A stretch of 64,000 nucleotides of DNA from a virus: the IMG/VR virus record IMGVR_UViG_3300032053_000003, positions 158,392 to 222,391 of that record; one strand, written 5' to 3'. Under the pieces are notes generated by a model. That model did no database searches and had not been told where the DNA came from. It worked only from the letters and a program-made list of their open reading frames with translations. The translations under genes were made by a program, and so were the position numbers. This document shows, in pieces, positions 55,485 to 56,370 of this stretch. Every line of letters begins with the position of its first letter. Within the stretch, counting starts at the first letter, position 1.

Positions 55485-55636
55485 TTACCAAACTCCCCAG
55501 AATCAATAGAACGAATTGATTAAGAGATAATAAACTAAAAATAATTTAGAAACAATAGGAGAAAATAAAAATAAATTATAACTATTTCTAAAAAGTTGGC
55601 ATCTTTCTTGCAGCCTACCCTAAGCTTCTGGTCCAT

Positions 55637-55709
55637 GCTTTACGGAGTAAAGCTTTTCTTTTTTTTGCTTTACGGAGTAAAGCTTGTCCTTTGTCTTACG
55701 AAGTAAGAC
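55637..55709. promoter_or_regulatory. Three 17-bp dyad-symmetric operator-like sites in the divergent control region
   Basis: gctttacGGAgtaaagc at 55637-55653 and at 55667-55683, and the compensatory variant gtcttacGAAgtaagac at 55693-55709. Half-site ctttacggaat at 55755. Confidence 0.45.
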
Positions 55710-56370
55710 TTATCCGTTTCTTTTGAAAAGGGGGTTTTAGGGGGGAGAACTTTTCTTTACGGAATTTTTATCAAGATAGTCAAGATTATTTTTTTATTGT
55801 TGTCTTTTCAATGTCTTATCTGTGTTTACTTTGTTCTTGACACCTGTTTGGTATTTTCAGCCCTGTGGAGTACTATTTTTGTGAAGAGATCATTTTGGGC
55901 TCAGTTGGAATTTCTATTTGAGTTTTTGAGCCTCAAATTTTCAAGATTATTACCTTTTAAAATATGTGATATGCTATTAATTTGATGTTAATAAGTAGTT
56001 ATTATATGTAGTTATGGTTTTTAAAAGAATTACAGAATCTAGTATGTTTTTATTTGAAAGTAAGTGCTTGTAACCTCTGGGTATAATTAATGATATTTTT
56101 AATTAATAGTATAGATACTTTAATGATGTTATTATGTTAAGTGTTTTTTGAGGTATATAGATTTTTATCGTGTAAAGTGTGGATATCATTATGTTTCTGT
56201 TCCATGGAACTAATAATCTGGAAGTACACTGGTAACATGGTCATTAAAAGTAAAGGTGTTGACAACCCTTTTTGAAAAGCTTAGGATTGTATCTTAATTC
56301 AATGTTGCTTTTTGTTGGGAGTTGTTTGTGTTTATAATGAGGATCAAATTCAATCTCGTTAGGTTAAATA

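What the first reader, a model, noticed from the sequence alone, without database searches (positions are those of the whole stretch)
55507..56370. An 864-bp divergent control region with three 17-bp dyad operators and an extremely AT-rich segment
This region lies between the leftward SbcD gene and the rightward DinG-like helicase gene and has no ORF. It contains two identical perfect palindromes gctttacGGAgtaaagc (55637, 55667) and a third with symmetric compensatory changes, gtcttacGAAgtaagac (55693). Their centres are 30 and 26 bp apart, and there is a further half-site at 55755. Substitutions that preserve symmetry argue for selection on a dimeric protein-binding site or an RNA hairpin, and against chance. 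The stems are AT-rich and only 7 bp, so I rate them as poor terminators. They are followed by G-runs (55731-55747) and about 250 bp of roughly 80% A+T (55960-56200). I read this as an operator or repressor triplet plus divergent promoters, and possibly a DNA-unwinding element or origin.
Basis: seen in the sequence. Interest (0 to 1): 0.6.

Follow-up and report, generated by a model that had tools for sequence, protein, structure and literature searches.

The report
Hairpin triplet in phage control region
Three small palindromes between the repair-nuclease and helicase genes of an uncultivated jumbo phage are real, but they look like strand-folding hairpins downstream of a conserved sigma-54-type promoter rather than repressor binding sites, and their exact role is still unproven.

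Summary
Three perfect 7-bp-stem, 3-nt-loop palindromes lie at 55637, 55667 and 55693. The third carries two compensated stem changes. G-runs and a 78% A+T stretch follow, all in a non-coding gap between SbcD and a DinG/XPD-like helicase. The operator reading is not supported. Relatives with 62-76% identical helicases keep the gap but not the palindromes; some have different hairpins there, some have none. No DNA-binding gene was detected nearby, and no promoter hexamers overlap the sites. Three other elements are conserved: a sigma-54-type -24/-12 motif (TGGCAT-N5-TTGCW, 55597-55612) that points rightward, a block of two G-runs (55725-55764), and a pair of TTGAC hexamers. The palindromes are a lineage-specific triplication of a unit of about 28 nt (hairpin plus T-rich tail) in the variable stretch between the promoter motif and the G block. 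All three loops are C-GNA-G. I read them as single-strand hairpins. Rightward RNA attenuators or terminators are most likely (about 0.35). Extruded DNA hairpins of the N4-promoter or ssi-priming kind are the main rival. An origin in this region is plausible but unproven. Interest is moderate.

The parts
55486..56370 (.). Non-coding gap between SbcD-like (leftward) and DinG/XPD-like helicase (rightward), 70.5% A+T
   Evidence: Gaps of 870-1270 bp in the same position occur in relatives L003, L004, L005 and L007.
55575..55602 (-). Sigma-70-like leftward promoter candidate for SbcD (ATGCCA-16-TATAAT). Its -35 overlaps the sigma-54-type motif.
   Evidence: 10 of 12 matches. This is a consensus match only and is not conserved in L003, L005 or L007. 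L005 and L007 have their own TTGACT-17-TATATT close to SbcD.
55597..55612 (+). Sigma-54-type -24/-12 promoter motif TGGCATctttcTTGCA, pointing rightward
   Evidence: It is the only exact match in 64 kb, with 0.10 expected. The same motif, with the same spacing, strand and relative position, occurs in L003, L005/L006, L007 and L009. In L005, 0.01 matches are expected.
55636..55718 (+). Three tandem units of 26-30 nt. Each is a 7-bp stem with a 3-nt loop (55637-55653, 55667-55683, 55693-55709; loops GGA, GGA, GAA closed by C:G) followed by a T-rich tail.
   Evidence: (family D1: 100, 93 and 70% identity). One search scores the first two as terminator-like on the + strand. The loop class is shown.
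55725..55764 (+).
   Evidence: It is aligned in window, L003, L005, L007 and L010, is partial in L004, and is degenerate in L009. The G-run pair is unique in the window. The flanks can pair, with G-U pairs in L005 and L007 on the + strand only (sequence inspection).
55754..55783 (-). Candidate leftward promoter: TTGACT (55783-55778), 18 nt, TAAAGA (55759-55754)
   Evidence: The -35 is invariant in six relatives. The L009 equivalent was flagged as TTGACT-17-TATGGT. The -10 is weak and the element is unverified.
55778..55842 (.). Conserved pair AGTCAAG ... about 51 nt ... CTTGACA, with a conserved TTTCAATGnGTTA between them
   Evidence: The five core pairs never vary apart from one U-G, so this could be back-to-back -35-like hexamers or a protein site. 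No canonical -10 follows the rightward copy.
55950..56200 (.). AT-rich segment (GC 20-23%, G much more frequent than C) with short repeats such as ATAAGTAGTTAT / ATATGTAGTTAT (55991-56015) and TTAATGAT x2
   Evidence: Relatives carry a conserved block here, TTTTTGAAAAnGTCAAATAnTnGAnaTCATTGATG.
56259..56287 (+). Sigma-70-like promoter TTGACA-17-TAGGAT upstream of the helicase gene. Its spacer holds TTTTTGAAAA (56269-56278).
   Evidence: TTGAC is conserved at this position in all relatives.

Best explanation
The three palindromes are a lineage-specific tandem triplication of a unit of about 28 nt, made of a small hairpin and a T-rich tail. The unit lies in the variable leader just downstream of a conserved, rightward sigma-54-type promoter and just upstream of a conserved two-G-run block. 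They act by intrastrand base pairing, not as duplex operators. The most likely mechanism is that RNA made rightward from the 55597 promoter folds into these hairpins. The first hairpin, followed by UUUUCUUUUUUUU, and the two weaker ones then act as tandem intrinsic terminators or attenuators. They would limit how much transcription reaches the G block, the AT-rich core and the helicase-gp32-UvsX operon. Shown: the sequences, their uniqueness, the compensated changes, the conserved promoter motif and G block, and the lack of conservation of the palindromes. Inferred: that the promoter fires, that the hairpins form in RNA, and that they terminate transcription.
For: The T-rich tail belongs to the repeated unit and lies 3' of every hairpin on the + strand only. 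On the - strand the hairpins are preceded by A-runs. The scan scores two of the three as terminator-like on the + strand, against 0.6 expected. A -24/-12 motif with exact spacing lies 25 nt upstream on the same strand and is conserved in five divergent relatives. Relatives have other hairpins in the same interval. L005 and L007 have GCCTTGC-N3-GCAAGGC, and L009 has an 8-bp stem with a 3-nt loop. L005 has four + strand terminator-like sites, against 0.5 expected, some of which need G-U pairs that exist only in + strand RNA. Two compensated base-pair swaps keep the third stem perfect. The palindromes are absent in relatives, which argues against a conserved operator system.
Against: The stems are weak for terminators (-5.4 and -5.7 kcal/mol as RNA), and only the first has a strong U-tract. 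L003, L007 and L009 have no terminator-like site in this interval, so the role is not conserved across the clade. Folding of the whole leader is not better than shuffles (z -0.6 to -1.9), and the conserved core has no consensus RNA structure (-1.9 kcal/mol). Promoter activity, a sigma-54-bearing host and an activator are all unverified. No activator signature was found in the 64 kb. All stem pairs are Watson-Crick, so the palindromes themselves do not indicate a strand. Templated correction of quasi-palindromes could produce symmetric changes without selection.
Confidence: 0.35

Rival explanations
1. The palindromes act as extruded single-stranded DNA hairpins. They would be recognition structures for a polymerase or a primase, as in the hairpin promoters of phage N4 virion RNA polymerase or the single-strand initiation signals of G4 and RSF1010. 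They would start leftward RNA or DNA synthesis next to an AT-rich, easily unwound origin.
For: All three loops are GNA closed by C:G (aCGGAGt x2, aCGAAGt), and the only loop change keeps GNA. This is the 'mini-hairpin' class, which is unusually stable as DNA and is reported at the G4 priming site, in RSF1010 ssiA (CCGAAGG) and in N4 early promoters (5-7 bp stem, 3-nt GGA or GAA loop, three promoters) (PMC13037366; PMC4496689). With GGA on the + strand as template, synthesis would run leftward, which is the direction of the SbcD operon. C-GNA-G and C-GNNA-G hairpins are about 15 times denser in these gaps than in flanking coding DNA (7 in 6.4 kb against 8 in 112 kb). They include L005 (GTA), L007 (GAA and GTAA) and L004 (GACCGAAGGTC). 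The locus lies in the middle of the replication module, beside an AT-rich segment.
Against: In L004, L005 and L007 the GNA triloop is on the opposite strand, and L003, L009 and L010 have none. The N4 contact base -8G and the GC-rich heptamer are not matched, since A:T pairs flank CGGAG. No single-subunit RNA polymerase was seen among the ORFs tested, though only 64 of about 235 kb is available. The enrichment test was devised after the pattern was seen, and several of the hairpins are duplicates or orthologues.
Confidence: 0.2
2. One reading: the three 17-bp dyads are operators bound cooperatively by a dimeric phage repressor that controls the divergent promoters.
For: The size (17 bp), the perfect dyad symmetry and the presence of three sites with 30 and 26 bp spacing resemble lambdoid operator arrays. 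The sites lie within a divergent control region, and a repressor bound at +13 to +85 could block rightward transcription.
Against: The sites are not conserved outside the species, although the surrounding architecture is conserved. They do not overlap any -35 or -10 hexamers. No DNA-binding family was found in the neighbouring small ORFs, and those ORFs vary or are absent in relatives. Both half-sites of the third copy changed in step, which is expected for pairing and not for protein contacts. The conserved T-rich tails are not explained.
Confidence: 0.1
3. The hairpins are structural elements in a long 5' leader of the leftward SbcD-operon mRNA, which would start at the candidate promoter at 55783-55754. 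They would affect RNA stability, processing or translation. The reverse complement of the G block would form a C-rich 5' end able to pair with the GGGGAG ribosome-binding site of SbcD.
For: The TTGACT -35 is invariant in six relatives, with a fixed 17-18 nt spacing to a TAAAGA, TAGAAA or TATGGT hexamer. The palindromes fold equally well on the - strand (-26.1 kcal/mol, z -4.8). CUCCCC in the leader is complementary to the SbcD ribosome-binding site.
Against: The -10 hexamers are poor. Closer leftward promoter candidates exist next to SbcD. G-U pairs in the L005 and L007 hairpins become C-A mismatches on the - strand. Any C-run pairs with any G-rich ribosome-binding site, so that complementarity carries little weight.
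Confidence: 0.15
4. The triplet has no function of its own. It would be a recent slippage duplication of the conserved TTTACGGA element that became palindromic by templated repair and is simply tolerated in a variable spacer.
For: The left arm plus loop (CTTTACGGA) equals the conserved half-site next to the G block in window, L003 and L007. The interval between the promoter and the G block varies in length and content, and in L004 it is almost absent.
Against: The array is identical in four samples. The third copy diverged yet kept a perfect stem and a GNA loop. Unrelated hairpins occupy the same interval in other lineages.
Confidence: 0.1

Closest known systems
Tandem intrinsic (Rho-independent) terminators or attenuators in a promoter-proximal leader, such as lambda PR'-tR' controlled by antitermination
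   Same: A short stem-loop is followed by a U-tract on the transcribed strand, repeated in tandem within about 100 nt of a promoter and upstream of a long operon.
   Different: The stems are AT-rich and weak (-5.4 kcal/mol). Only the first copy has a full U-tract. No antiterminator is known, and the feature is not conserved across the clade.
Phage N4 virion RNA polymerase early promoters (P1-P3)
   Same: There are three hairpins with a 5-7 bp stem, a 3-nt GGA or GAA loop with a sheared G:A, a C:G closing pair and a CGGAG core. The strand that carries GGA would be the template for the adjacent leftward genes.
   Different: The flanking bases are A:T rather than the GC-rich heptamer GCGGAGC, and -8G is absent. 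No N4-like polymerase was found in the available 64 kb. The phage is a jumbo phage of about 235 kb with T4-like replication genes, not a schitovirus. The position relative to the genome ends is unknown.
Single-strand initiation signals (G4 complementary-strand origin, RSF1010 ssiA/ssiB)
   Same: GNA or GNNA mini-hairpins lie next to an AT-rich region within a replication module. A DnaG/Toprim-like primase candidate is encoded nearby at 47301-48197, although both Pfam hits fall below the curated cutoffs (19 and 18.4 bits, E 0.0015 and 0.003).
   Different: There is no evidence that priming occurs here. The hairpin strand differs between relatives, and no iteron-binding initiator has been identified.
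Lambdoid operator triplets (OR1-3 / OL1-3)
   Same: Three 17-bp dyads lie a few helical turns apart in a divergent control region.
   Different: The dyads are perfect, with compensated changes. They do not overlap promoter hexamers, no adjacent repressor gene was found, and they are not conserved in relatives.
Sigma-54-dependent promoters in phages (Pseudomonas phage YuA, cited in PMC10914365)
   Same: The motif TGGCAT-N5-TTGCW has the invariant GG and GC at the canonical spacing.
   Different: Activity, activator and host are unknown. It is a single copy in 64 kb, and it heads a non-coding leader rather than a gene.
Transcript-primed origins (T4 oriF/oriG, ColE1 RNA II, mitochondrial LSP-CSB II-OH)
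   Same: The order is a promoter, then about 70-110 nt, then two G-runs on the non-template strand, then AT-rich DNA. The locus lies among replication genes at the strand switch and GC-skew minimum. CSB II is also a pair of G-runs about 120 nt from its promoter (PMC3488243, PMC6317783).
   Different: This is an analogy only. No replication start, R-loop or processing site has been shown. GC skew is confounded with gene direction. L009 lacks long G-runs.

Membership tests
Operator array for a dimeric repressor | Sites conserved, or co-varying with a repressor, in related phages | tested here: not met
   The core TTACGRAGTAA is found only in same-species contigs L017-L019. It is absent from L003, L004, L005, L007, L009 and L010.
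Operator array for a dimeric repressor | Sites overlap the -35 or -10 of the regulated promoters | tested here: not met
   No promoter-like hexamer pair overlaps 55637-55709. The sites lie downstream of the conserved -24/-12 motif.
Operator array for a dimeric repressor | An adjacent gene for a DNA-binding regulator | tested here: inconclusive
   No Pfam family was found for the 75-aa and 168-aa neighbours, and PHROG gives only 'unknown function'. Remote folds were not tested.
Intrinsic terminator | Stem-loop immediately followed by a U-rich tract on the transcribed strand | tested here: met
   Hairpin 1 is followed by TTTTCTTTTTTTT (11 T in 12 nt). Hairpins 1 and 2 were scored by the scan, against 0.6 expected.
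Intrinsic terminator | A stable, usually G+C-rich stem | tested here: inconclusive
   The stems have 7 bp with 3 G:C pairs, and free energies of -5.4 and -5.7 kcal/mol. This is at the weak end.
Intrinsic terminator | Lies downstream of an active transcription unit on that strand | not testable with these tools
   Only a predicted promoter (55597-55612) lies upstream. No transcript data are available.
N4-type hairpin promoter | A 5-7 bp stem and a 3-nt loop with a central purine, GGA or GAA, closed by C:G | tested here: met
   and for the definition.
N4-type hairpin promoter | Conserved GC-rich heptamer and -8G contact base | tested here: not met
   The sequence here is ACGGAGT or ACGAAGT, against GCGGAGC in N4, so position -8 is A.
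N4-type hairpin promoter | A cognate single-subunit virion RNA polymerase encoded by the phage | not testable with these tools
   None was seen among the ORFs scanned, but only 64 of about 235 kb is available.
Sigma-54-dependent promoter | GG at -24 and GC at -12 in TGGCAC-N5-TTGCW with exact spacing | tested here: met
   TGGCATctttcTTGCA is present, with 0.10 expected in the window.
Sigma-54-dependent promoter | Conservation of both elements and their spacing in relatives | tested here: met
   L003, L005/L006, L007 and L009 all have it at the same relative place. It is degenerate in L004 (CTGGTGtttttcTTGG).
Sigma-54-dependent promoter | An upstream activator site, an activator ATPase and sigma-54 in the host | tested here: inconclusive
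   No GAFTGA or Walker-type activator signature occurs in the six-frame translation of the window. An inverted repeat at 55501-55521 is only a candidate site. The host is unknown.
Transcript-primed (R-loop) replication origin | A promoter followed by a G-rich non-template strand and an easily unwound AT-rich segment | tested here: met
   The order is conserved in L003, L005 and L007.
Transcript-primed (R-loop) replication origin | Mapped replication start, persistent RNA-DNA hybrid and primer processing | not testable with these tools
   No experimental or coverage data are available. GC skew changes sign here, but so does gene direction.
Known RNA family (Rfam) | A match to a curated covariance model | tested here: not met
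   No match at E <= 1 in 55000-57000 on either strand.

The most novel reading that the evidence does not exclude
The gap could be the replication origin of a previously undescribed clade of jumbo phages, working by transcript priming. A sigma-54-type promoter, silent until an activator ATPase fires it, would send RNA through a gate of tandem hairpins into a conserved pair of G-runs. There the RNA would stay hybridised to the template (an R-loop or hybrid G-quadruplex, as at mitochondrial CSB II or ColE1) and prime DNA synthesis into the adjacent AT-rich DNA. The GNA-loop DNA hairpins would serve as start signals on the other strand. The first gene downstream encodes a DinG/XPD-family helicase, a family known to unwind R-loops and G-quadruplexes.
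Probability: 0.15. Interest if true: 0.75.

Novelty: new member of a known kind. Interest (0 to 1): 0.4.

Why it matters
If the hairpins are attenuators behind a sigma-54-type promoter, this would be a rare case of a virulent-type jumbo phage placing its replication and recombination operon, or a non-coding RNA, under an activator-gated host sigma factor. That would make the timing switch of an uncultivated phage clade testable. If the G-run block and the hairpins turn out to be origin elements, the locus would give a defined origin for a group of phages that has none. It would also be a bacterial-virus parallel to R-loop and G-quadruplex priming in mitochondria and ColE1 plasmids. If neither holds, the practical lesson is that perfect dyads with compensated changes in phage intergenic DNA should first be read as hairpins rather than operators.

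Tried and rejected
- **DNA similarity to sequenced phages.** There is none. The flanking proteins are below 30% identical to cultured phages.
- **IMG/VR scans.** Scans with the helicase sequence and with its alignment found no relatives. The 17-mer search found two unrelated single hits, which I judged to be chance.
- **Rfam.** There was no match.
- **CsrA/RsmA sponge RNA (GGA loops).** I rejected this. The third loop is GAA, the loops have 3 nt, and relatives have UAC or UUC loops on that strand.
- **Small conserved ORF or leader peptide.** I rejected this. tblastn of the five small ORFs found nothing. The conserved ATGCCA would give peptides of 3-18 aa with no ribosome-binding site, and it does not explain the conserved TTGC.
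- **One conserved RNA fold for the G block through CTTGACA.** RNAalifold gives -1.9 kcal/mol. Whole-leader folds are not better than shuffles.
- **Shared k-mers across the gaps.** The result was swamped by AT-richness (145 against about 100 in shuffles).
- **GC skew as evidence for an origin.** The minimum is at 55-56 kb, but it coincides with the change in gene direction. Skew downstream of the promoter is only +0.07 to +0.29 in relatives.
- **Activator or sigma-54 signatures in the window.** None were found.
- **UvsW-like R-loop helicase.** The second helicase is XPB/Rad25-like instead. The DinG-like helicase has no PDB sequence match.
- **Genome-wide class of GNA hairpins.** Only two others with stems of 5 bp or more occur in 64 kb.
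- **Genome-collection scan for a host.** It returned only a distant hit in a Nosocomiicoccus MAG, which says nothing about the host.

Full report
**Setting**

The window is part of an uncultivated phage genome of about 230-237 kb. Around the finding lies a replication and recombination module.

- To the left, on the - strand, are an NAD-dependent ligase, a family-B DNA polymerase split into two ORFs, a DnaB-like helicase, a candidate Toprim/DnaG-like primase (weak Pfam hits, below cutoff), an exonuclease, SbcC-like (51972-53657) and SbcD-like (54460-55485/55506).
- To the right, on the + strand, are a DinG/Rad3-type helicase (56371-58020), a gp32-like protein, a UvsX/RecA recombinase and an XPB-like helicase.

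No sequenced phage is similar at the DNA level. The flanking proteins are below 30% identical to cultured phages.

**Checking the observation**

- **The palindromes.** The three have 7-bp stems and 3-nt loops, and their centres are 30 and 26 bp apart.
- **The third copy.** It differs from the first two by two base-pair swaps that keep the stem perfect, and by one loop base (GGA to GAA).
- **Uniqueness.** The motif does not occur elsewhere in the window.
- **Clustering.** Three of only about 25 perfect hairpins with stems of 7 bp or more in 64 kb fall within 73 bp here.
- **A tandem repeat.** The palindromes are part of a direct repeat of 26-30 nt that includes a T-rich tail after each stem.
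- **Composition.** The stretch 55960-56200 is 77.6% A+T, with 43 G and 11 C.
- **Coding potential.** The gap has only short ORFs, and none is conserved.
- **Reproducibility.** Contigs from three other samples are 100% identical across the gap.

**Relatives**

A protein search with the helicase found a small clade at 52-76% identity. I fetched their contigs. The architecture is conserved in L003, L004, L005 and L007: SbcD leftward, then a non-coding gap of 870-1270 bp, then helicase, gp32-like and UvsX rightward. The palindrome sequence is not conserved. It occurs only in the same-species contigs.

**What is conserved**

Reading and aligning the gaps shows the following conserved elements, in order on the + strand.

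1. **A sigma-54-type promoter motif.** TGGCAT-N5-TTGCW matches the -24/-12 consensus. It is the only exact match in the window, with 0.10 expected. It recurs with the same spacing and relative position in L003, L005/L006, L007 and L009. It is degenerate in L004. An alternative reading on the other strand, as a sigma-70 -35 (ATGCCA-16-TATAAT), is specific to the window and does not explain the conserved TTGC.
2. **A variable interval of about 10-105 nt.** The window has the three palindromes here. L005 and L007 have GCCTTGC-N3-GCAAGGC plus other hairpins. L009 has two other stems. L003 has little, and L004 has almost nothing.
3. **A T-rich run followed by a block of two or more G-runs.** In the window this is GAAAAG GGGG TTTTA GGGGGG AGAA CTTTTC TTTACGGAA, at 55725-55764. 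It is identical in L003 and similar in L007. This suggests that the palindromes arose by duplication of that element.
4. **A pair of TTGAC hexamers.** AGTCAAG is followed about 51 nt later by CTTGACA, with a conserved sequence between them.
5. **An AT-rich part.** It has a conserved block in relatives and short repeated ATCATT-type motifs.
6. **A sigma-70-like promoter before the helicase gene**.

**Structure tests**

Each palindrome folds at -5.4 to -5.7 kcal/mol as RNA, and equally well on either strand. The leader as a whole is not more stable than shuffled sequence. RNAalifold finds no consensus structure in the conserved core. Rfam has no match. The conserved blocks therefore look like sequence signals, and the hairpins look like local, lineage-specific structures.

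Terminator-like sites on the + strand are enriched in the window (2 against 0.6 expected) and in L005 (4 against 0.5). They are absent in L003, L007 and L009.

**The loop class**

All three window loops are GNA closed by C:G. The L005 and L007 hairpins are C-GTA-G and C-GAA-G on the opposite strand. L007 also has a C-GTAA-G, and L004 has GACCGAAGGTC. Such hairpins are about 15 times denser in these gaps than in flanking coding DNA. That comparison was made after the pattern was seen, and some of the hairpins are not independent.

GNA triloops are unusually stable as DNA. They are reported at the G4 priming site, in RSF1010 ssiA and in the three N4 virion-polymerase promoters, which have 5-7 bp stems and GGA or GAA loops (PMC13037366 and PMC4496689). 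The resemblance to N4 is close in geometry and in the CGGAG core. It fails on the flanking GC pairs and on -8G, and no cognate polymerase is visible in the window.

**Interpretation**

Operators are unlikely, for five reasons: the sites are not conserved, they do not overlap promoter hexamers, no regulator gene was detected nearby, the stem changes are compensated, and the T-tails are unexplained.

The data fit hairpins that act in a single strand. I favour rightward RNA attenuators or terminators behind the sigma-54-type promoter (0.35). The reasons are that the T-tails belong to the repeat unit, they lie on the correct strand, and L005 has analogous sites that depend on G-U pairs. The main rivals are:

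- DNA hairpins of the N4 or ssi type (0.2);
- structures in a long leftward SbcD leader that starts at a candidate TTGACT-18-TAAAGA promoter (0.15);
- operators (0.1);
- a neutral duplication (0.1).

Sigma-54-dependent phage promoters have a precedent in phage YuA (PMC10914365).

**Is it an origin?**

The region lies at the centre of the replication module, at the strand switch and the cumulative GC-skew minimum. It has the order promoter, G-runs on the non-template strand, then AT-rich DNA. This recalls T4 oriF/oriG, ColE1 and the mitochondrial LSP-CSB II arrangement (PMC3488243 and PMC6317783).

A distant relative with a 35% identical helicase has an AT-rich gap with tandem repeats of about 50 bp in the same place.

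All of this evidence is circumstantial. The skew is confounded with gene direction, and skew in relatives is modest. I give the transcript-primed origin reading about 0.15.

**Verdict**

Interest is moderate. The parts are of known kinds, the combination is undescribed, and the function is unproven.

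Noticed in passing
window 30581-33259 (-): An 892-aa ORF matches Major Vault Protein domains (MVP_shoulder 4.4e-20, Vault_3 2e-8) and has no PHROG family. A vault-protein-like gene in a phage is unusual.
   Followed up: no
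window 37993-39531 (-) and 39518-40798 (-): The family-B DNA polymerase is split into two adjacent, slightly overlapping ORFs that match consecutive parts of phrog_17 (positions 478-829 and 834-1299). This could be a split gene, a frameshift or an error.
   Followed up: no
window 56371-58020 (+) and 61456-62961 (+): An XPD/DinG-type helicase and an XPB/Rad25-type helicase (best PDB match 6p4f, 3e-25) bracket the gp32-like and UvsX genes. Both TFIIH-type helicase families therefore sit in one phage module.
   Followed up: partly
L004 5001-7673; L007 10467-11659; proteins P0016, P0022, P0023: Helicase genes of relatives carry inteins or homing endonucleases (Intein_splicing plus HNH_3; Hom_end / Hom_end_hint). 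The window's copies are uninterrupted.
   Followed up: no
L006, L008, L009, L010, L011, L012, L014, L015, L016 (starts of contigs): Nine independent contigs of relatives end inside the gap upstream of the helicase gene, 84-1000 nt from its start. This may reflect AT-richness and repeats, or something structural such as genome ends. The break points are scattered.
   Followed up: partly
L021 4800-4930: In a distant relative (35% identical helicase, NCBI assembly GCA_029935835.1), the equivalent divergent gap is very AT-rich. It holds a tandem repeat of about 50 bp (GATACACACTTTTTAAATTAAAACTACTCAAAATAATTGGTTTTGATTGA) in two full copies plus a partial one. The repeat looks like an iteron.
   Followed up: no
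window 55501-55521: The inverted repeat AATCAAT-N7-ATTGATT lies about 80 nt upstream of the sigma-54-type motif, at a distance typical of activator sites. L005 and L007 have ATCAG-N3-CTGAT about 125 nt upstream of theirs.
   Followed up: no
L005 3824-3843 and L007 3924-3945: A hairpin between SbcD and the sigma-54-type motif differs between the two relatives by two compensated base-pair changes (GGCAGC/GCTGCC against GGCTGG/CCAGCC).
   Followed up: no
window 56269-56278; L003 4678; L005 4546; L007 4539; L009 438; L014 61: TTTTTGAAAA occurs exactly once in the window and once in each relative's locus, always in this gap, but at different distances from the helicase start (102 nt against 320-460 nt).
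   Followed up: partly
L014 410-990: One relative has an extra ORF of about 190 aa inserted between the AT-rich gap and the helicase start.
   Followed up: no
window 12656-13639 (-) and 50199-50918 (-): There is an ArdC-like antirestriction and zincin peptidase protein (ArdcN 3e-37, MPTase-PolyVal 5e-38) and a DUF5131 protein (1.6e-43).
   Followed up: no
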